From: Escherichia coli
GTDB lineage: Bacteria > Pseudomonadota > Gammaproteobacteria > Enterobacterales > Enterobacteriaceae
Reading direction: 5' to 3' (one strand)
Assembly (NCBI RefSeq): GCF_003790525.1
Contig: NZ_CP033635.1
Length of the DNA stretch: 64,000 nucleotides
The notes below the pieces were generated by a model. That model had not been told where the DNA came from. It did no database searches and saw only the letters and a program-made list of their open reading frames with translations. Of the stretch, positions 47,403 through 58,647 are shown one piece after another (position 1 is the first letter of the stretch; each line of letters starts with the position of its first letter). The position numbers and the translations under genes are program-made.

Positions 47403-49073
47403 ATGGATAATGCAGAACTCGCCATTGGTATCGATCTCGGTACTACCAATAGTTTAATTGCCGTCTGGAAAGACGGTGCCGCGCAATTAATTCCAAATAA
47501 GTTCGGTGAATATTTAACACCATCCATAATTAGCATGGATGAAAATAATCATATTTTAGTCGGAAAACCGGCTGTATCACGGCGTACTTCGCATCCGGAT
47601 AAAACGGCAGCGTTATTTAAACGTGCAATGGGCAGTAATACCAACTGGCGGTTAGGCAGCGACACATTTAACGCGCCAGAACTGTCCTCTTTGGTATTAC
47701 GCTCATTAAAAGAAGATGCCGAAGAATTTCTGCAACGTCCGATTAAAGATGTGGTGATCTCCGTTCCGGCTTATTTCAGCGATGAACAACGCAAGCATAC
47801 CCGTTTAGCAGCGGAGTTAGCCGGGTTAAATGCGGTACGCTTAATTAATGAACCCACAGCAGCTGCGATGGCATATGGCCTGCATACGCAACAAAATACC
47901 CGCTCGCTGGTTTTTGATCTCGGTGGCGGCACGTTTGACGTCACGGTGCTCGAATACGCCACGCCGGTGATTGAAGTTCACGCCTCCGCTGGCGACAACT
48001 TTCTTGGCGGCGAAGATTTTACTCATATGCTGGTGGATGAAGTTTTAAAACGCGCCGCAGTGGCTAAAAACATGCTCAACGAAAGTGAGCTGGCAGCCCT
48101 GTACACCAGCGTGGAAGCGGCAAAATGTAGCAATCAATTACCGCTGCAAATTAGCTGGCAGTATCAGGAAGAAACGCGTGAGTGCGAATTTTACGAGAAC
48201 GAACTGGAAGATTTGTGGTTGCCGCTGCTCAATCGCTTGCGAGTGCCGATTGAACAGGCGTTGCGCGATGCACGTCTGAAGCCAAGTCAAATCGACAGTC
48301 TGGTGCTGGTTGGCGGCGCATCACAAATGCCGCTGGTGCAGCGAATCGCCGTGCGTCTGTTTGGCAAATTACCGTATCAAAGTTACGATCCGAGCACCAT
48401 TGTCGCGCTGGGCGCAGCAATCCAGGCCGCCTGCCGCTTACGCAGTGAAGATATTGAAGAAGTGATCCTCACTGATATTTGCCCCTACTCCTTAGGTGTT
48501 GAAGTTAACCGCCAGGGCGTTTCCGGCATTTTCTCACCGATTATTGAACGAAATACCACTGTGCCGGTGTCGCGAGTAGAAACTTACTCGACCATGCACC
48601 CGGAGCAGGATTCAATAACGATTAATGTTTATCAGGGAGAAAATCACAAAGTTAAGAATAATATACTGGTTGAATCCTTTGATGTTCCGCTGAAGAAAAC
48701 CGGGGCTTATCAGTCTATTGATATTCGCTTTAGTTATGATATTAACGGATTGCTTGAAGTTGACGTGCTTCTGGAAGACGGCAGCGTTAAGTCCAGAGTC
48801 ATTAACCACAGCCCGGTAACGTTAAGTACCCAGCAAATTGAAGAGAGTCGGGCACGGTTATCCGCATTAAAAATTTATCCGCGCGATATGCTCATCAACC
48901 GTACCTTTAAAGCCAAACTGGAAGAGTTATGGGCGCGGGCGCTGGGTGACGAGCGAGAAGAGATTGGCCGGGTAATCACCGATTTTGATGCGGCGCTGCA
49001 ATCAAACGATATGGCCCGCGTCGATGAAGTTCGTCGACGGGCGAGCGATTATTTGGCCATTGAGATCCCTTAA
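47403..49073 (+). CDS. hscC: Hsp70-family chaperone HscC (Hsc62)
   Basis: 556 aa; actin-like ATPase motifs IDLGTTNS, DLGGGTFD; no C-terminal EEVD-type lid tail. Confidence 0.9.
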   Translation: MDNAELAIGIDLGTTNSLIAVWKDGAAQLIPNKFGEYLTPSIISMDENNHILVGKPAVSRRTSHPDKTAALFKRAMGSNTNWRLGSDTFNAPELSSLVLRSLKEDAEEFLQRPIKDVVISVPAYFSDEQRKHTRLAAELAGLNAVRLINEPTAAAMAYGLHTQQNTRSLVFDLGGGTFDVTVLEYATPVIEVHASAGDNFLGGEDFTHMLVDEVLKRAAVAKNMLNESELAALYTSVEAAKCSNQLPLQISWQYQEETRECEFYENELEDLWLPLLNRLRVPIEQALRDARLKPSQIDSLVLVGGASQMPLVQRIAVRLFGKLPYQSYDPSTIVALGAAIQAACRLRSEDIEEVILTDICPYSLGVEVNRQGVSGIFSPIIERNTTVPVSRVETYSTMHPEQDSITINVYQGENHKVKNNILVESFDVPLKKTGAYQSIDIRFSYDINGLLEVDVLLEDGSVKSRVINHSPVTLSTQQIEESRARLSALKIYPRDMLINRTFKAKLEELWARALGDEREEIGRVITDFDAALQSNDMARVDEVRRRASDYLAIEIP

Positions 49074-49183: not shown

Positions 49184-50635
49184 CTAACTGAACAACATCG
49201 CGATTTTACCGATCGCGTAACCTATCACCAGCACCGTTAAGCTGATTTTGATAATGCTGGTAATGCTCTGTGGTTTTTCATCCTCATCATTTTTTTCTTC
49301 GTGGTTTTCAGGTGTTGGCTCATCGACATCTTCATCCTCCGGCTCGAGTTTCACTTTCGTCAACAGCATCCGCGTGATAATGGCCTCTAATGGATGAGCA
49401 TCTCCACCTTCCAGCCTTGTATTAAGACGGGCCAGCATCTCTTGTTTCGGGAACGCTTCCAGCACAACCTGTTCCGCTACCCGATACAAATCCAGTAACG
49501 GTGAATCTTGTTCTGTCTCGCTACCGACTCTCGATTTCCACCATGCCCATGCTTTGCGCTTGAAGAATAACGACTCAATAAACGATTGACCTAACGGCGA
49601 TAATTTTCCGCTATGTAAAATTTCCGCCCATAACAGCCGCGTCCGGGCGCTCTCACCAGGAACATATTTCAACGGTTGACCTTGCGCATCTATCATGCTT
49701 CGCGCTTCGATAACCATCACTAATAACGCGAAATAATCCGGGCAATGACGCTTGCTCCACTGCAACAACAAATTATCAGCTTGTGTAGATGGGTAACTCT
49801 CCCGGTATGCGCAGAGATCGGCAAGCAGGCTTTCCCCCTCGCCACAGTACAACCGTTGCGCACACTGGTAATAACGGGCATCTTCGCTTTCTGGATTTTC
49901 TGCTTGCCACTGTTGGGCAACAGGAATAAGTTCCGCCATACCTGTTTTCACCGAGCTGTACCAGCGCAACAGTTTGCGATGTAACTTGACATCATCAGGA
50001 ATGAACCACGGACCTTCCATTGCCATAAACGCAGTGACATAGTCAGGATGGTAACGGCAGCAGCGTTCCAGCGCGAAGTAATACTCAACAGTCTGGTTCT
50101 GCAACGCGACGGGATATTCCAGAAGGCTAAGGAAATCGAAACAATCACCAGCCTGAATGGCCTCAAGAAAAGCCTCCCTTTCTTCCTCATCCATTCCTTC
50201 GCTGTCATTAAACGAATGCCAGTTCAAACGCTCTGCCAGCAAAGAAGCACAATTTAATGAAAGATATCGCGCTTCTATAGCGACTGCACACAGCGGCCAG
50301 CGTAATTGATCGACATCCTCCATGTTCCAGGTATTTAATTGCTGAATAAATTTCTGCCAGGCGGAGGGCTGAAAACGATCACTTTCAGAATCCAGTAATG
50401 CCCTGAATGCACGTAGTATTTCATGTTCAGCGGCGGCATCTTTTTCTTCATCATCTGCTTCCTCGACAGGATTTACCGCCAGTCGCAGCGCCTCTTCATA
50501 GGCCTGGCGTAATGCTTTAAACCCCTGCGGATCGGTTTCGGGATGACACAACGGTAAGCGAGCAAGATAAGCCTGGCGGATAATGTCTATTTGCGTCGTG
50601 CTTTCAATTTCGAGGATTTGCCAACATGTTTTCAT
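49184..50635 (-). CDS. djlC: J-domain-like co-chaperone DjlC (YbeV), C-terminally membrane-anchored
   Basis: 483 aa; N-terminal J-like region with HPE in place of HPD; acidic linker; C-terminal hydrophobic segment [26 protein letters not shown]. Confidence 0.85.
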
Positions 50636-51339
50636 AGGTCGCTCACATCCTTAAGCGTTACCGGGCATTCAGGCTGGACAGTTAATGGCTGCCAGGGAAG
50701 CGTGGCATAGAAACGGTCGCTTCCCGCTGCCAGCTCTTCGAACATCCGACTCCCGGCGCTATCGTATTTGTACAGGGTTAGCGCCTCGCGTAGCGAAGCG
50801 TTGTCTTCGCACTGAGAAGATTGCCAGTAGAGACGCCCTAACGAATAGGCGGAAAAATAGTGCATCCAGCTGTGATAGTAATGGTGTGCTCGTATATAGA
50901 CGCGCGATTGCAGCCATAAACTCTCGTCTTCCGTCAGCCACTTGTTGAGCACACCAACCCGTGATAAAAAACCCATCCGCACATAATCCCAGGCTTTGAT
51001 TCCCCCTTCCCCACAACACATAGCGGTTTGGGCAACGAATTGGGTATAAATCAACCCTCTCTCCGAGCCGCCAGCAATTAATGCTTTCCACTCTTCAGGG
51101 GAAGAGCGATGCCATGTCAGATATAAGCCAGCTAAATCATTGGCATGACCATCATCGGTCATCTGATAAATAGTCTGAATTAAATCATCACGATTATTTA
51201 TTCCCCAGGATGATGAGAGATCGAATTCTTTTATCCCGGTATACATTTTTGGCGAGTCATGCGCGGGCTTGCAACCCTGATTAAGTATTTCCATGGGCGT
51301 AGAAAGCGCAAAAAGAAGATATTGTTCTTCCTTATTCAT
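50632..51339 (-). CDS. ybeU: DUF1266 protein YbeU, translationally coupled to djlC
   Basis: 235 aa; paralog of YbeR (about 60% identity by eye); stop overlaps djlC start (ATGA). Confidence 0.85.
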
Positions 51340-51440
51340 TTGTTAATAATCCCTTATGTGCATTAACTGACTACTTTTTTATTATTGATGAGTATAAACT
51401 TGACGCTTTCAAAATAAAAAGAAAATCGAAGCATTCACTC

Positions 51441-51995
51441 ATGAATAAAAAATTAATGTATATATTCGCAATATTTATAGTTGCAGCAATAACCTGTATT
51501 AGCCAACCCAAGAAAACGACGTTGCGTGATAAAGCCATGGCGAATTATGCCTTTGATTATTTAAGCTCACCGGGCAGTCTTCCATTCACCACGGCAGCCA
51601 CGGAGCTTTCCGCGATTCATGGTCACTCAACGTCGCAATATCGCCTTGGAGAATTTTATCTTCATGGTAGCGACGGTAAACCACTGGATTATACACAGGC
51701 GAGATACTGGTATGAGCAATCAGCGGAACAGGAAAATCCACGCGCGCAAAGTAAACTGGGGTGGATCTACCTCAAAGGTCTGGGGGTCAAACCCGATACC
51801 CGTAAAGCAATTCTCTGGTATAAGGAAGCAGCTGAACAAGGGTATGCTCATGCTCAATATACTTTAGGTTTGATCTACAGAAACGGCTCAGGTATTAATG
51901 TTAACCATTATGAATCTCAAAAATGGTTAAAACTGGCCGCCAAACAACATTACAAAAACGCGGAAAGATTACTTGCCGGGCTTCCCGCACATTAA
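51441..51995 (+). CDS. ybeT: Sel1-repeat protein YbeT with N-terminal signal/anchor
   Basis: 184 aa; hydrophobic N-terminus [19 protein letters not shown]; repeated AxxWY..AAEQG Sel1-like units. Confidence 0.85.
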
Positions 51996-52004
51996 CGTCG
52001 ACTG

Positions 52005-53432
52005 TCACCCGAACAGATGGAGTATTTTCCCTATCAAACCGGCAAAGATAAAAATGTAGAAAATAATTTTGATGACGCCCAGGCAGCCCGGCCCACCATC
52101 GTCAACGGGCATCGACTGCGGTTGCGGCTCCGGTTCGACGGTTTGCTTCTCGGTAAAATTTGCCGCCTGAATTAATAATCGACGAATCATTAATGCTTCC
52201 AGTGGACAACGATCTTCTGCATCAAGGCGGCTGACGATCGGCATTAATGATTCTTCTGTCGGTTGGCTGGCCTGAACTAATTGTTTAGCAACTAAATATA
52301 ATGGCCATAAGGGATGTTCTGTATCACGCGTGAGTGAGATCCGCGGCTTACGTCCTTTGTGCAAAACCATCTCGACCAGAGAACGCCCCAGCGCAGAGAG
52401 TTTTTCATCACTGAGTATTTCGTATAAATGAAAACGCGTACGAGCGCTGTCACCAGGGACATAAAGTAGCGGTTTTCCCTGATCGTTAACCAGATCACGC
52501 GCTTCAATCATCATCACCACTAACGGGTAATAATCGACCCGATGCTGACGGCACCATTGCAACATTAAAGCATCCGCCTGGGTGGAGGGATACTCGCGCC
52601 AGTAGTCACAAAGTTCTGCCAGCAGGCTTTCGCCTTCTCCACAATAGACGCGTTGCGCGTATTCATAATAACGCGCATCTTCATTATCAGGTTCAGCTTC
52701 CCGCCACGACCGGGCGTAATCCAGAAGTTCGGGGATATCCAGACGGCTTGTGCTATACCAGCGGAGTAAATTTCTGTGCAAATTTGCATCATCGGGGATA
52801 ATCACTGCGCGATGTTGCGCTAAATACAATGTCAGCCATTCTGGATGCGATGACCAAATCCGAGCGAACATTTGGTAAAAATCAATGGTGTCATTTTGTA
52901 CGGCAACGGGCAGATGCAGAATGGTCTGGAAGTTAAAAACATTCCCCTTCGCAATGGCATATAAAAAGGATTCCAGTTCTTCTTCGTCTATTTCCCCGAC
53001 GTTTTCCTCCTGCAACCACCGCAATCTTTCTGCTAATAACACCACGCACTCGAAGGATAAATGGGCAGTGTTCATGGCTATTGTGCACAGCGACCAGCGT
53101 AATTCATCAATATCTTCCATCGAGCAATAATTTAATTGCTGAATGAATCGCTGCCAGGCAGAGGGCAGAAAACGTTCGCTATCAGAGGCGAGTAACGCAC
53201 GAAAGGCGAGCAGAATTTCATGTTCTGCAACTTCATGTTCTTCTGGTTGCCAAACAGATTTAGCAGGCGACTGCGCAATCCGTAGCGCGTCCTCATACGC
53301 CTGACGAAGTTGTTTAAAACCCTGCGGATCGGTTTCTGGATGAAAGGACGGTAACAGCGCCAGATAAGCGCGGCGGATAATATCGACGTCAGTCGTTTCC
53401 TCTATTTCGAGAATCTTCCAGCAATTTTTCAT
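52005..53432 (-). CDS. djlB: J-domain-like co-chaperone DjlB (YbeS), C-terminally membrane-anchored
   Basis: 475 aa; full-length paralog of DjlC; HPE motif; C-terminal hydrophobic tail [24 protein letters not shown]. Confidence 0.85.
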
Positions 53433-54136
53433 AGGTCGCTCATATCCTTAAGCGTTTCCGGGCATGTGGGGTAGTCAGCCAGTGGTTGCCAGGGTAAGGT
53501 CGCGTAATATGCATCGTCACTGGCAAATAATTGATAAAACATATCATTGCCGGAATCGTCGTATTCTTTACGCGCTAAGAATTCACGTAATAAAGGCAGA
53601 TCATCATCCTCGGGAGACTGCCAATATTGCCGACCAAAGGTATAACCGGCAAAGTATTGCCGCCAGTGACTATAATAACGTAGAGCCCGTAGATGAATGC
53701 GCGACTGGATCCACAGGCTTTCTTCTTCACTCAACCAGTTATTAAGTACGCCCATTCGGCTTAAAAAACCCATCCGGACATAATCCCAGGCTTTAATTCC
53801 TCCCTCACCACAGCATTCGGCGGTGCTGGCGACAAATTGCGCATAAGCCTGACCTTGCTCATTTAATTCAGCAAGATAGTCACGCCATTCACATGGCGAA
53901 TAACGAAACCAGCAGTGATAAAACCCTGCCAACCGCGCGGCATGACCGTTATCAATCATTCGGTAAATTGTGCGCAGCAGGTCATCACGGTCATCAATTC
54001 TCCAGGAGGAAGAAAGGTCAAAAAAGCGTGTACCTAAATACATTTTGGGGGATGAATGCGAAGGTAAACAGCATTCATTGCGTATTTCCATCGGAGTGGA
54101 AAGTGCAAACAATATTTTTTGCGACTCCATGTCCAT
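53429..54136 (-). CDS. ybeR: DUF1266 protein YbeR, translationally coupled to djlB
   Basis: 235 aa from ATG 54136 (ORF-track start 54163 is an extension); paralog of YbeU; ATGA overlap with djlB. Confidence 0.8.
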
Positions 54137-54299
54137 ATAATTCATCCTTAAATATTCATTCAATGAATATTAACCACGTTGCGAGGCTCATTTATTTATA
54201 CTTTTCTGACGCAACATAATACGCATAAAATAAGGCTTACGCAAAAATGGAACACATAAAAATATAATATGTTTTATATGCAACCATAAGGAAATGATA

Positions 54300-55277
54300 A
54301 TGATTTTTACGTCAAGTTGCTGCGATAATTTATCAATAGAAAAGATTGTTAAACGTGCTGAAAAAGGCGATAGCGAGGCTCAATATATTGTTGGGTTTTA
54401 TTATAATCGCGATAGCGCAATTGACTCTCCGGACGACGAAAAAGCCTTCTACTGGCTGAAGCTTGCCGCTGAACAAGGCCATTGTGAAGCACAATATTCC
54501 TTAGGGCGGAAATACTCCGAGGATAAAAGCCGTCATAAAGATAATGAGCAAGCCATCTTTTGGCTGAAAAAAGCTGCCCTACAAGGCCATACTTTCGCTT
54601 CCAACGCCCTTGGCTGGATACTGGATCGTGGAGAAGACCCCAACTATAAAGAAGCGGTTGCCTGGTATCAGATAGCCGCGGAGAGCGGAATGCCTTATGC
54701 GCAAAATAATCTTGGATGGATGTACAGAAATGGTAACGGAGTCGCACAAGACTATGCGCTGGCATTTTTCTGGTACAAACAAGCTGCATTACAAGGCCAT
54801 AGTTACGCGCAAGACAACCTGGCCGATCTCTATAAAGACGGAGAAGGCGTTGCTCAAAACAAGACACTCGCCGCATTCTGGTATTTGAAAAGCGCACAGC
54901 AGGGTAATCGGCATGCCCAGTTTCAAATTGCATGGGATTATAACGCTGGCGAAGGGGTGGACCAGGACTATAAGCAAGCGATGTACTGGTATCTGAAGGC
55001 TGCCGCTCAGGAAAGCGTCGGCGCTTACGTCAACATCGGTTATATGTATAAACATGGACAAGGCGTTGAGAAAGATTATCAGGCCGCCTTTGAATGGTTT
55101 ATGAAAGCCGCTGAATGCAATGACGCCACTGCCTGGTATAACCTGGCCATTATGTATCACTACGGAGAAGGAAGACCTGTCGATCTCCGACAGGCTCTCG
55201 ACCTGTATCGTAAAGTTCAGGCATCCGGTACCAGGGATGTCAGTCAAGAAATCCGTGAGATTGAAGATTTACTGTAA
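54300..55277 (+). CDS. ybeQ: Sel1-repeat protein YbeQ
   Basis: 325 aa from ATG 54300 (better RBS spacing than 54294); at least 7 Sel1-like repeats. Confidence 0.85.
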   Translation: MIFTSSCCDNLSIEKIVKRAEKGDSEAQYIVGFYYNRDSAIDSPDDEKAFYWLKLAAEQGHCEAQYSLGRKYSEDKSRHKDNEQAIFWLKKAALQGHTFASNALGWILDRGEDPNYKEAVAWYQIAAESGMPYAQNNLGWMYRNGNGVAQDYALAFFWYKQAALQGHSYAQDNLADLYKDGEGVAQNKTLAAFWYLKSAQQGNRHAQFQIAWDYNAGEGVDQDYKQAMYWYLKAAAQESVGAYVNIGYMYKHGQGVEKDYQAAFEWFMKAAECNDATAWYNLAIMYHYGEGRPVDLRQALDLYRKVQASGTRDVSQEIREIEDLL

Positions 55278-55830: not shown

Positions 55831-56064
55831 CGTTTCATCTCCCGGGTCGTTAACTGACTATAATAATAGACGTTCTTTGTTCCTTGCTTTGCTAATACGC
55901 CCACAAACTCTGTAAATTAATGTATGAATAATCCGGGCATCATTTCAACGTCGAGTGCGCGAAAGGCTGTTTTGACGCGGACGTTTGGGCTATGCTATGC
56001 GGATCTGAAAAACCACCTCAACGCTACATTTGTAGCCGTATTGAAAACAGGACCACTGGCTGCC

Positions 56065-58647
56065 ATGCAAGAGCAATACCGCCCGGAAGAGATAGAATCC
56101 AAAGTACAGCTTCATTGGGATGAGAAGCGCACATTTGAAGTAACCGAAGACGAGAGCAAAGAGAAGTATTACTGCCTGTCTATGCTTCCCTATCCTTCTG
56201 GTCGACTACACATGGGCCACGTACGTAACTACACCATCGGTGACGTGATCGCCCGCTACCAGCGTATGCTGGGCAAAAACGTCCTGCAGCCGATCGGCTG
56301 GGACGCGTTTGGTCTGCCTGCGGAAGGCGCGGCGGTGAAAAACAACACCGCTCCGGCACCGTGGACGTACGACAACATCGCATACATGAAAAACCAGCTC
56401 AAAATGCTGGGCTTTGGTTATGACTGGAGCCGCGAGCTGGCAACCTGTACGCCGGAATACTACCGTTGGGAACAGAAATTCTTCACCGAGCTGTATAAAA
56501 AAGGCCTGGTATATAAAAAGACTTCTGCGGTCAACTGGTGCCCGAACGACCAGACCGTACTGGCGAACGAACAAGTTATCGACGGCTGCTGCTGGCGCTG
56601 CGATACCAAAGTTGAACGTAAAGAGATCCCGCAGTGGTTTATCAAAATCACCGCTTACGCTGACGAGCTGCTTAACGATCTGGATAAACTGGATCACTGG
56701 CCAGACACCGTTAAAACCATGCAGCGTAACTGGATCGGTCGTTCCGAAGGCGTGGAAATCACCTTCAACGTTAACGACTATGACAACACGCTGACCGTTT
56801 ACACTACCCGTCCGGACACCTTTATGGGTTGTAGCTACCTGGCGGTAGCGGCGGGTCATCCGCTGGCGCAGAAAGCGGCGGAAAATAATCCTGAACTGGC
56901 GGCCTTTATTGACGAATGCCGTAACACCAAAGTTGCCGAAGCTGAAATGGCAACGATGGAGAAAAAAGGCGTCGATACTGGCTTTAAAGCGGTTCACCCA
57001 TTAACGGGCGAAGAAATTCCCGTTTGGGCAGCAAACTTCGTATTGATGGAGTACGGCACGGGCGCAGTTATGGCGGTTCCGGGTCACGACCAGCGCGACT
57101 ACGAGTTTGCCTCTAAATACGGCCTGAACATCAAACCGGTTATCCTGGCAGCTGACGGCTCTGAGCCAGATCTTTCTCAGCAAGCCCTGACTGAAAAAGG
57201 CGTTCTGTTCAACTCTGGCGAGTTCAACGGTCTTGACCATGAAGCGGCCTTCAACGCCATCGCCGATAAACTGACTGCGATGGGCGTTGGCGAGCGTAAA
57301 GTGAACTACCGCCTGCGCGACTGGGGTGTTTCCCGTCAACGTTACTGGGGCGCGCCAATTCCGATGGTAACGCTGGAAGACGGCACTGTGATGCCGACCC
57401 CGGACGACCAGCTGCCGGTGATCCTGCCGGAAGATGTGGTGATGGACGGTATTACCAGCCCGATTAAAGCAGATCCGGAGTGGGCAAAAACTACCGTTAA
57501 CGGTATGCCAGCGCTGCGTGAAACCGACACTTTCGACACCTTTATGGAGTCCTCCTGGTACTATGCGCGCTACACTTGCCCGGAGTACAAAGAAGGTATG
57601 CTGGATTCCAAAGCGGCTAACTACTGGCTGCCGGTGGATATCTACATTGGTGGTATCGAACACGCCATTATGCACCTGCTCTACTTCCGCTTCTTCCACA
57701 AACTGATGCGTGATGCAGGCATGGTGAACTCTGACGAACCAGCGAAACAGTTGCTGTGTCAGGGTATGGTGCTGGCAGATGCCTTCTACTATGTTGGCGA
57801 AAACGGCGAACGTAACTGGGTTTCCCCGGTTGATGCTATCGTTGAACGTGACGAGAAAGGCCGTATCGTGAAAGCGAAAGACGCGGCAGGTCATGAACTG
57901 GTTTATACCGGCATGAGCAAAATGTCCAAGTCGAAGAACAACGGTATCGACCCGCAGGTGATGGTTGAACGTTACGGCGCGGACACCGTTCGTCTGTTTA
58001 TGATGTTTGCTTCTCCGGCGGATATGACTCTCGAATGGCAGGAATCCGGCGTGGAAGGGGCTAACCGCTTCCTGAAACGTGTCTGGAAACTGGTGTACGA
58101 GCACACAGCAAAAGGTGATGTTGCGGCACTGAACGTTGATGCGCTGACTGAAGATCAGAAAGCGCTGCGTCGCGATGTGCATAAAACTATCGCTAAAGTG
58201 ACCGATGATATCGGCCGTCGTCAGACCTTCAACACCGCTATTGCGGCGATTATGGAGCTGATGAACAAACTGGCGAAAGCACCGACCGATAGCGAGCAGG
58301 ATCGCGCCCTGATGCAGGAAGCGCTGCTGGCGGTAATCCGTATGCTTAACCCGTTCACCCCACACATCTGCTTCACGCTGTGGCAGGAACTGAAAGGCGA
58401 AGGCGATATCGACAACGCGCCGTGGCCGGTTGCTGACGAAAAAGCGATGGTGGAAGACTCCACGCTGGTCGTGGTGCAGGTTAACGGTAAAGTCCGTGCA
58501 AAAATCACCGTTCCGGTGGACGCAACGGAAGAACAGGTTCGCGAACGTGCTGGCCAGGAACATCTGGTAGCAAAATATCTTGATGGCGTTACTGTACGTA
58601 AAGTGATTTACGTACCAGGTAAACTCCTCAATCTGGTCGTTGGCTAA
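56065..58647 (+). CDS. leuS: Leucyl-tRNA synthetase
   Basis: 860 aa from [15 protein letters not shown]; HIGH (HMGH) and KMSKS motifs; ORF-track start 55924 is an extension. Confidence 0.95.

What the first reader, a model, noticed from the sequence alone, without database searches (positions are those of the whole stretch)
50426..50635. Both J-like proteins carry HPE instead of the canonical HPD and end in a single hydrophobic tail
Seen in sequence: DjlC reads ...[16 protein letters not shown] and DjlB ...[16 protein letters not shown] (djlB N-terminus at 53223..53432), so the invariant Asp of the J-domain HPD tripeptide is Glu in both paralogs. Both proteins end in a roughly 25-residue hydrophobic segment, giving a tail-anchored topology. 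Established knowledge: the HPD Asp is normally essential for stimulating Hsp70 ATPase. Inference: these may be specialised, perhaps weak or HscC-restricted, membrane-tethered co-chaperones.
Basis: partly seen in the sequence, partly recalled or inferred. Interest (0 to 1): 0.45.

Follow-up and report, generated by a model that had tools for sequence, protein, structure and literature searches.

The report
DjlB/DjlC: HPE J-domains, tail-anchored (known)
The two E. coli co-chaperones DjlB and DjlC do carry His-Pro-Glu instead of the usual His-Pro-Asp and end in one membrane-spanning tail, but both facts and their dedicated partnership with the Hsp70 HscC are already published, so the finding is correct but ordinary.

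Summary
The window is the E. coli SMS-3-5 chromosome. The locus is hscC / djlC-ybeU / ybeT / djlB-ybeR / ybeQ.

**Observation: confirmed.**
- Residues 31-33 are HPE in both DjlC and DjlB.
- In the structure models it sits in the loop between helices II and III.
- Each protein ends in a single C-terminal hydrophobic helix that scores like the known DjlA membrane helix.

**Interpretation: supported by published experiments.**
- DjlC, but not DnaJ, CbpA or HscB, stimulates the HscC ATPase.
- The DjlC J-domain cannot replace DnaJ's.
- DjlC is an experimentally shown tail-anchored inner-membrane protein.
- HPE in DjlB/DjlC is stated explicitly in a 2023 PNAS paper and a 2026 review.
- "Weak" is not established.

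**What I add.**
- Glu is invariant in every N-terminally intact close relative. In 64 long distant relatives the motif is xPE-x-DP-x-GF, and His is less conserved than Glu.
- Seven of seven distant relatives are encoded next to an HscC-type Hsp70.
- Three of those seven keep a 4-nt-overlapping upstream DUF1266 gene, as in the window.
- HscC-type Hsp70s keep the DnaK residues that contact HPD, but all carry D481N and L392T.

**Verdict:** already known; low interest.

The parts
49184..50635 (-). djlC (ybeV) CDS, 483 aa: J-domain, acidic disordered linker, TPR-like helical body, acidic linker, C-terminal transmembrane tail
50474..50635 (-). DjlC J-domain (residues 1-54): helix I 4-8, helix II 16-29, loop 30-35, helix III 36-54; no helix IV modelled
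50537..50545 (-). DjlC His31-Pro32-Glu33 codons (CAT CCC GAA)
49187..49264 (-). DjlC C-terminal hydrophobic tail (residues 458-483); best 19-residue core is 464-482
   Evidence: tail anchoring shown experimentally per PMC6794478
52005..53432 (-). djlB (ybeS) CDS, 475 aa, 50% identical paralog of DjlC with the same layout
53334..53342 (-). DjlB His31-Pro32-Glu33 codons
52008..52088 (-). DjlB C-terminal hydrophobic tail (residues 449-475)
47403..49073 (+). hscC, 556-aa Hsp70, the published partner; convergent with djlC
50632..51339 (-). ybeU (DUF1266), directly upstream of djlC; its stop overlaps the djlC start (ATGA at 50632-50635)
   Evidence: the same arrangement in distant loci
53429..54136 (-). 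ybeR (DUF1266), 61% identical to YbeU, directly upstream of djlB; ATGA overlap at 53429-53432
51441..51995 (+). ybeT, Sel1/TPR-repeat protein, divergent from ybeU-djlC
54300..55277 (+). ybeQ, Sel1/TPR-repeat protein, divergent from ybeR-djlB

Best explanation
DjlB and DjlC are class-C J-domain co-chaperones held at the cytoplasmic face of the inner membrane by one C-terminal transmembrane helix, and they work only with the specialised Hsp70 HscC encoded beside them.

The N-terminal 55 residues form a real but divergent J-domain. Helices I-III are kept, the loop after the motif is about 6 residues shorter than in DnaJ, and helix IV is not evident. The catalytic tripeptide is HPE.

The Glu is not decay. 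It is the fixed state of a whole clade of J-domains (signature xPE-x-DP-x-GF) whose genes sit next to HscC-type Hsp70 genes.

The Glu carboxylate presumably does the job of DnaJ Asp35, which contacts the Hsp70 Arg167 and Gln378 equivalents; HscC keeps both, as R146 and Q341. It would do so in an interface remodelled on both sides: a shorter J loop and fewer helix-II positive charges on one side, and HscC D481N, L392T, D477S/T and loss of the D211 loop on the other. That would insulate the HscC system from DnaK and DnaJ.

The TPR-like body, probably together with the translationally coupled DUF1266 protein, would select clients or partners at the membrane.

Shown: the sequence facts, the fold, the conservation, the gene neighbourhood and the published biochemistry. 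Inferred: the Glu-Arg contact, co-adaptation as the reason for Glu, and the DUF1266 partnership.
For: - **HPE on HPD.** Alignment to four E. coli J-domains. A family profile hits 42 solved J-domains (best E = 1.5e-8; DnaJ in 5NRO, 1.1e-7) with PE on PD. Pfam DnaJ matches 49 of 50 family members.
- **Fold.** Models put HPE in the loop between helix II and helix III. The top 50 Foldseek PDB hits are all J-domains; 5NRO_B gives TM 0.70 and rmsd 2.0 Å.
- **Tail.** Kyte-Doolittle 2.03 and 2.37 against 2.24 for the DjlA membrane helix and at most 1.19 for soluble controls. A C-terminal helix in the model.
- **Conservation.** HPE in 113 of 113 close homologs. All 64 long distant relatives have Glu: 55 HPE, 6 NPE, and 1 each of LPE, SPE and HPPE. 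Glu33 is invariant and His is not in alignment A2.
- **Neighbourhood.** 7 of 7 distant relatives lie next to a 556-567-aa Hsp70. These Hsp70s are 44-60% identical to HscC and 30-37% identical to DnaK and HscA.
- **Partner residues.** R167, Q378, L391 and P419 are kept in all 8 HscC-type proteins. D481N and L392T are invariant, and D477 is S or T. The contacts themselves are as described for 5NRO in PMC8215388.
- **Published function.**
Against: - Single-sequence Pfam support is weak for the window proteins (E = 0.036 for DjlC, 0.0011 for DjlB), and single-sequence PDB search finds no J-domain. Membership therefore rests on the family profile and the fold.
- The 150 best profile hits were retrieved with a profile that itself carries HPE, which is a mild circularity. 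HPD-bearing relatives could exist further down the 6606 hits, which I could not see.
- The 7 contexts were picked by me from long hits. They are not a random or exhaustive sample.
- No complex model was made, so the Glu-R146/Q341 contact and the D481N co-variation are inference only.
- DjlB has no published ATPase or membrane data that I could read.
Confidence: 0.85

Rival explanations
1. The HPE J-domains are degenerate 'pseudo-J' domains (the so-called type IV J-domain proteins). They would bind or scaffold but would no longer trigger Hsp70 ATP hydrolysis.
For: The canonical Asp is missing. The single-sequence Pfam score is weak. Helix IV is not modelled. Some relatives even lack the His, carrying NPE, SPE or LPE.
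Against: DjlC stimulates the HscC ATPase (PMC8215388). The 2026 review calls HPE the one tolerated replacement. Pro32, Glu33, Pro36 and Gly38 are invariant across 50 diverse members, which is purifying selection on the loop. The gene always accompanies an Hsp70 gene (7 of 7 contexts).
Confidence: 0.05
2. Glu versus Asp is a functionally neutral conservative substitution, fixed once in the ancestor of the family and simply inherited. On this view specificity for HscC comes entirely from other residues: the helix II charges and the loop length.
For: D and E are chemically similar. The HscC residues that would contact the acid (R146, Q341) are unchanged from DnaK. Helix II of DjlB and DjlC lacks the DnaJ K26/R27 charges, and HscC lacks the D211 loop, which alone could explain specificity.
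Against: No reversion to Asp in 113 close plus 64 long distant relatives, although the neighbouring positions vary (x after E is T/S/N/I/E/D/R/V/K) and even the His varies. Across all J-domains HPE is only about 1% (PMC10410713). Strict two-way exclusivity argues for selection on side-chain length.
Confidence: 0.25
3. The hydrophobic C-terminus is not a membrane anchor but an amphipathic or oligomerisation helix, or a degron.
For: Each tail contains two Lys. DjlC's summed Hessa-scale value is slightly positive, at 1.36.
Against: Published experiments show the DjlC transmembrane domain is necessary and sufficient for inner-membrane insertion, with YidC cross-links (PMC6794478). Hydrophobicity equals that of the DjlA membrane helix. 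37 of 64 long relatives carry C-terminal membrane helices, some in a DUF805 membrane domain.
Confidence: 0.03

Closest known systems
E. coli K-12 DjlC (YbeV) and DjlB (YbeS), co-chaperones of HscC (Kluck et al. 2002; Peschke et al. 2018)
   Same: They are the same genes in another E. coli strain. The region is 95-100% identical across thousands of genomes and carries the same annotation. HPE, the tail anchor and the HscC partnership are all described in the literature.
   Different: Nothing of substance. SMS-3-5 alleles differ by a few residues from the commonest cluster representative (95% identity to P0001).
DnaJ / CbpA J-domains (Pfam PF00226; structure 5NRO with DnaK)
   Same: Helix I-II-III fold. 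The motif sits in the II-III loop. Conserved Tyr in helix II (Y23, equivalent to Y25). Phe-Lys at the start of helix III and the following Arg/Lys (F39, K40, R43, equivalent to F47, K48, K51).
   Different: HPE, not HPD. The loop after the motif is about 6 residues shorter. The DnaJ K26/R27 positions are Leu/Ala. There is no clear helix IV and no G/F or zinc-finger regions. The DjlC J-domain cannot replace DnaJ's.
DjlA (E. coli membrane-anchored class-C J-protein for DnaK)
   Same: A single-pass inner-membrane J-protein with a cytoplasmic J-domain and comparable helix hydrophobicity.
   Different: DjlA is anchored by an N-terminal helix with the J-domain at the C-terminus, has canonical HPD and works with DnaK. 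[quoted passage not shown]
HscB-HscA (dedicated J-protein / Hsp70 pair for Fe-S cluster assembly)
   Same: A specialised, mutually exclusive Hsp70/J pair encoded side by side. The Hsp70 lacks the D211 loop and does not use GrpE.
   Different: HscB keeps HPD and HscA keeps D481 and L392. It is soluble, and its client (IscU) is known.
Other HPE J-domains (about 1% of J-domain proteins, including eukaryotic Na/Ca-exchanger-linked ones; PMC10410713)
   Same: The same D-to-E replacement within an otherwise recognisable J-domain.
   Different: Unrelated architectures. Whether they share the xPE-x-DP-x-GF short-loop signature was not tested.

Membership tests
J-domain (Pfam PF00226 DnaJ) | Significant sequence match to the J-domain profile | tested here: met
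   Weak for single sequences (DjlC E = 0.036, DjlB 0.0011 as full proteins; 5e-4 for the 58-aa DjlC domain). 49 of 50 family members match at E <= 0.001. The family profile hits 42 solved J-domains, best 1.5e-8.
J-domain (Pfam PF00226 DnaJ) | Helix II - loop - helix III hairpin with the motif in the loop | tested here: met
   [not shown]
J-domain (Pfam PF00226 DnaJ) | Invariant His-Pro-Asp tripeptide | tested here: not met
   HPE in both proteins and Glu throughout the clade. The literature treats HPE as the one replacement that seems to be tolerated, so the field still counts them as J-domain proteins.
J-domain (Pfam PF00226 DnaJ) | Helix IV completing the four-helix domain | tested here: inconclusive
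   The Pfam match covers model positions 2-51 of 63 only. Residues 55-70 are disordered in the model. The region is not alignable to DnaJ helix IV.
J-domain (Pfam PF00226 DnaJ) | Stimulates ATP hydrolysis by a partner Hsp70 | not testable with these tools
   Published for DjlC with HscC (Kluck 2002, via PMC8215388). Assumed, not shown, for DjlB.
DjlB/DjlC family (Pfam PF27158 DjlB_C_2nd) | Match to the family-specific central domain | tested here: met
   Precomputed PF27158 on near-identical homologs (P0001 at 95% identity, P0042 for DjlB) and on distant relatives. The Pfam copy used by profile_search did not report it. A profile of A1 finds 1025 proteins at E <= 1e-10.
Tail-anchored inner-membrane protein | A single hydrophobic helix within about 30 residues of the C-terminus and no other membrane or signal segment | tested here: met
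   Kyte-Doolittle 19-residue means of 2.03 (residues 464-482 of 483) and 2.37 (450-468 of 475). The next best segments are 1.34 and 1.53, below 1.6. Model helix at 458-482.
Tail-anchored inner-membrane protein | The tail is necessary and sufficient for post-translational membrane insertion | not testable with these tools
   Published for DjlC (PMC6794478, citing Peschke 2018). Not reported for DjlB in anything I could read.
HscC-dedicated co-chaperone | Genetic linkage to an HscC-type Hsp70 | tested here: met
   hscC is convergent with djlC, 110 nt away. 7 of 7 distant relatives are adjacent to an Hsp70 that is 44-60% identical to HscC.

The most novel reading that the evidence does not exclude
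The Glu would be the defining catalytic-loop residue of a broad, ancient J-domain clade (xPE-x-DP-x-GF, with a short II-III loop). It is more conserved there than the His. The clade is always encoded beside an HscC-type Hsp70. On this reading the Glu is required because the HscC interface was rebuilt around R167: D481N, L392T and D477S/T are invariant in 8 HscC-type proteins. A D-to-E or E-to-D swap would then break each system, making a one-carbon specificity switch between Hsp70 circuits. A second, separate point is that a DUF1266 protein, translationally coupled to the J-protein in E. coli and in distant taxa, would be an undescribed third subunit of the HscC machine.
Probability: 0.3. Interest if true: 0.45.

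Novelty: already known. Interest (0 to 1): 0.15.

Why it matters
As given, the finding restates textbook-level facts about E. coli DjlB, DjlC and HscC, so it matters little.

Its residual value is as an entry point to an unanswered question: what HscC does, and how Hsp70 circuits in one cell are insulated from each other. Three observations could guide experiments on HscC's still-unknown clients:
- Glu, rather than His, is the fixed residue across the clade.
- HscC-type Hsp70s uniformly carry D481N. In DnaK, replacing D481 with Ala raises basal ATPase about 80-fold.
- A DUF1266 gene is translationally coupled to the J-protein gene across distant taxa.

Tried and rejected
**Searches that led nowhere**
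- Single-sequence PDB search with DjlC 1-120 found no J-domain; the only hits were a marginal complex-I subunit and SYF2. A family profile was needed.
- NCBIfam and PADLOC have no model for DjlB, DjlC, YbeU or YbeR. There is therefore no hint of a defence-system role. The PtuA matches of the Sel1 proteins are weak repeat noise.
- A PDB sequence search with YbeU (DUF1266) found nothing meaningful.
- The literature search for 'HPE motif' plus 'J-domain' returned nothing. The relevant statements were found through DjlC/HscC searches instead.
- The primary papers Kluck 2002 and Peschke 2018 are not held. Their results are cited second-hand from PMC8215388, PMC1906734 and PMC6794478.
- 'DUF1266' appears in only one held paper, which is unrelated.

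**Ideas rejected**
- That HPE lies outside the II-III loop.
- That the single 'HPD' regex hits are motif variants. They are an internal YHPDY in N-terminally truncated fragments.
- That the many antisense ORFs are genes. They are mechanical shadows of the annotated genes.

**Not done**
- A genome-wide scan for HscC loci, because conserved Hsp70 motifs would mostly return DnaK.

Full report
**What is there**

The window matches the E. coli SMS-3-5 chromosome at 100% identity. The annotated order is gltL, rihA, hscC (+), djlC (-), ybeU (-), ybeT (+), djlB (-), ybeR (-), ybeQ (+), ybeL, leuS. The finding's coordinates, 50426-50635, are the first 70 codons of djlC (49184-50635, minus strand). The second site, 53223-53432, is the start of djlB (52005-53432, minus strand).

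**Checking the observation**

- Window 50537-50545 (-) and 53334-53342 (-) both translate to His-Pro-Glu, residues 31-33. The quoted peptide strings are in the ORF translations.
- The two proteins are 50% identical over their whole length. The shared HPE is therefore inherited, not two independent events.
- A MAFFT alignment with the J-domains of E. coli DnaJ, CbpA, DjlA and HscB, translated from K-12 records, puts HPE exactly on HPD. The helix II Tyr and the helix III Phe-Lys...Arg/Lys...Tyr also line up. The stretch between the motif and helix III is about 6 residues shorter than in DnaJ. The DnaJ K26/R27 positions are Leu/Ala. Nothing aligns to helix IV.

Single-sequence support for a J-domain is weak:

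| Test | Result |
|---|---|
| Pfam DnaJ on full-length DjlC | E = 0.036, model positions 2-51 of 63 |
| Pfam DnaJ on full-length DjlB | E = 0.0011, model positions 2-51 of 63 |
| phmmer of DjlC 1-120 against the PDB | no J-domain hit |

Family-level evidence is clear:

| Test | Result |
|---|---|
| Profile of 50 diverse N-terminal domains against the PDB | 42 solved J-domains; best 1.5e-8; DnaJ of the DnaK complex 5NRO 1.1e-7; CbpA 9e-8; PE on PD in every alignment shown |
| Pfam DnaJ on those 50 sequences one by one | 49 of 50 match at E <= 0.001 |
| AlphaFold, full-length DjlC | mean pLDDT 78; helix 16-29, loop 30-35, helix 36-54 |
| AlphaFold, isolated domain | pLDDT 89; the same hairpin |
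| Foldseek against the PDB | top 50 hits all J-domains; 5NRO_B TM 0.70, rmsd 2.0 Å |

**The tail**

The last 26-27 residues are [26 protein letters not shown] and [27 protein letters not shown].

| Protein | Best 19-residue Kyte-Doolittle mean | Next best segment |
|---|---|---|
| DjlC | 2.03 | 1.34 |
| DjlB | 2.37 | 1.53 |
| DjlA (known membrane helix) | 2.24 | not relevant |
| DnaJ, CbpA, HscB, HscC (soluble controls) | at most 1.19 | not relevant |

No second segment in DjlB or DjlC passes 1.6. The model has one helix at 458-482 after a disordered acidic linker at 432-457. The second refutation test also fails to refute. Each tail carries two Lys, so the apolar core is nearer 19-20 residues than 25.

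**What the literature already says**

- Both halves of the finding are published. A 2023 PNAS survey of about 280,000 J-domain proteins reports HPE in about 1% of them and names DjlB and DjlC as examples (PMC10410713).
[quoted passage not shown] Both proteins are described as tail-anchored. Mutants lacking hscC, or both djlB and djlC, are Cd2+-sensitive (PMC8215388, citing Kluck 2002 and Peschke 2018).
- The DjlC J-domain cannot replace that of DnaJ (PMC1906734).
- DjlC is a bona fide tail-anchored protein whose transmembrane domain is necessary and sufficient for insertion, aided by SRP, FtsY, DnaK and YidC (PMC6794478).

'Weak' is not documented in anything I could read. The two primary papers are not held.

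**What I could add: conservation**

- Among 120 close homologs from Escherichia, Salmonella, Citrobacter, Enterobacter and Pseudocitrobacter, all 113 with an intact N-terminus have HPE at residues 31-33.
- A profile search of 1.84 billion representatives found 6606 proteins at E <= 0.001. In the best 150, every protein with an intact N-terminus carries xPE followed by x-DP-x-GF.
- Among the 64 that are at least 400 aa long, 55 have HPE, 6 NPE, and one each LPE, SPE and HPPE. None has Asp.
- In a 50-sequence alignment, Pro32, Glu33, Pro36 and Gly38 are invariant while His31 is not. Within this clade the Glu is more conserved than the His.
- Caveat: the query profile contains HPE, and I only see the top 150 hits.

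**What I could add: neighbourhood and architecture**

- I looked up seven distant members, including the NPE, LPE and SPE variants. All seven lie directly beside a 556-567-aa Hsp70 gene.
- Those Hsp70s are 44-60% identical to HscC and 30-37% identical to DnaK and HscA.
- In three of the seven, a DUF1266 gene sits immediately upstream and overlaps the J gene by 4 nt. This is exactly how ybeU/djlC (ATGA at 50632-50635) and ybeR/djlB (ATGA at 53429-53432) are arranged in the window.
- Architectures vary. There are about 890-aa forms with C-terminal multi-helix membrane domains (one annotated DUF805), and 800-1280-aa forms fused to TPR arrays with no membrane helix. In all, 37 of 64 have predicted C-terminal membrane helices.

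**The Hsp70 side**

According to the 5NRO description, DnaJ H33 contacts the backbone of DnaK L391, P34 contacts P419, and D35 bonds R167 and Q378 (PMC8215388).

| DnaK position | State in the 8 HscC-type proteins |
|---|---|
| R167, Q378, L391, P419 | all kept (HscC R146, Q341, L356, P388) |
| D481 | Asn in all 8 |
| L392 (interdomain linker) | Thr in all 8 |
| D477 (partner of J-domain K48) | Ser or Thr |
| Loop 209-212, including D211 | deleted, as also in HscA |

D481 is the clamp residue that contacts R167/I168, and its replacement by Ala raises DnaK's basal ATPase 80-fold. A reasonable inference is that the longer Glu, on a shorter loop, is adapted to this rebuilt site, and that the combination insulates HscC from DnaJ-type partners and DnaK from DjlB and DjlC. 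No tool here can test that.

**Mechanism, as best supported**

DjlB and DjlC are inserted post-translationally by their tails. Their J-domains and TPR-like bodies face the cytoplasm. They recruit HscC·ATP to the membrane and trigger hydrolysis through the HPE loop. The TPR-like body, possibly with the co-translated DUF1266 protein, chooses the client. The divergently transcribed Sel1 proteins YbeT and YbeQ complete a module that has been duplicated in tandem: YbeU/YbeR are 61% identical, DjlC/DjlB 50%, and YbeT/YbeQ about 37%. The clients remain unknown.

**Rivals**

- *A dead pseudo-J domain.* Contradicted by the published stimulation and by purifying selection on the loop.
- *A neutral D-to-E change inherited by descent.* Cannot be excluded without mutants, but it sits badly with zero reversions while flanking positions, and even the His, vary.
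- *A non-membrane role for the tail.* Contradicted by published experiments for DjlC.

**Verdict**

Novelty: already known. Interest: low. The family-wide Glu invariance, the HscC D481N/L392T signature and the conserved DUF1266 coupling are modest additions worth a systematic survey and a few point mutants.

Noticed in passing
window 50632-50635 and 53429-53432; also L005 2906-2909, L007 8001-8004, L011 8001-8004: The DUF1266 genes ybeU and ybeR end in ATGA overlaps with the starts of djlC and djlB, which suggests translational coupling. The same 4-nt overlap between a DUF1266 gene and the HPE-J gene recurs in three distant metagenome or genome loci. This suggests DUF1266 is a stoichiometric partner of these J-proteins. 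'DUF1266' appears in only one held paper, which is unrelated.
   Followed up: partly
window 50632-55277: The three-gene unit (divergent Sel1 protein, then DUF1266, then J-protein) is duplicated in tandem. YbeU/YbeR are 61% identical, DjlC/DjlB 50%, and YbeT/YbeQ about 37% within Sel1 repeats. There is only one hscC.
   Followed up: partly
window 47403-49073 (HscC N448, T357, S444); Hsp70 genes in L005, L007, L008, L009, L011, L012, L013: All 8 HscC-type Hsp70s examined carry Asn at DnaK D481 (the SBD-NBD clamp residue that touches R167/I168) and Thr at linker L392. They keep R167, Q378, L391 and P419. Only 12 columns separate the HscC type from DnaK plus HscA in this way.
   Followed up: partly
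proteins P0215, P0222, P0243, P0246, P0251, P0260 (NPE), P0256 (LPE), P0262 (SPE); loci L009, L012, L013: In TPR-fused relatives the His of the motif is replaced by Asn, Leu or Ser while Pro-Glu stays, and the genes still abut an HscC-type Hsp70 gene. In canonical J-domains, replacing this His (H33Q) abolishes function.
   Followed up: partly
[not shown]
   Followed up: partly
window 51000-52000 and 53500-55000: G+C dips to 0.42 over ybeT, ybeQ and the two divergent promoter regions, against 0.52-0.54 in gltL/rihA and leuS. Papers on the SlyA regulon list ybeU and ybeT (not read), which would fit H-NS/SlyA control.
   Followed up: no
window 49184-53432 versus 5426 complete E. coli genomes; proteins P0016, P0038, P0039, P0114: The djlC-djlB stretch is found in 4407 of 5426 complete genomes, and at 80% coverage or more in 3692. 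The locus is therefore missing or partial in about a fifth to a third of strains. Several database DjlC forms end in out-of-frame sequence, which suggests frameshifted alleles.
   Followed up: no
window 51441-51510 (YbeT N-terminus): YbeT starts with a hydrophobic, signal-peptide or lipoprotein-like segment ([21 protein letters not shown]), whereas YbeQ has none. The two Sel1 paralogs may therefore sit in different compartments.
   Followed up: no
window 55924-58647: The mechanical leuS ORF (907 aa from 55924) starts 141 nt upstream of the annotated leuS start (window 56065). This is an ORF-caller artefact, not a feature.
   Followed up: no
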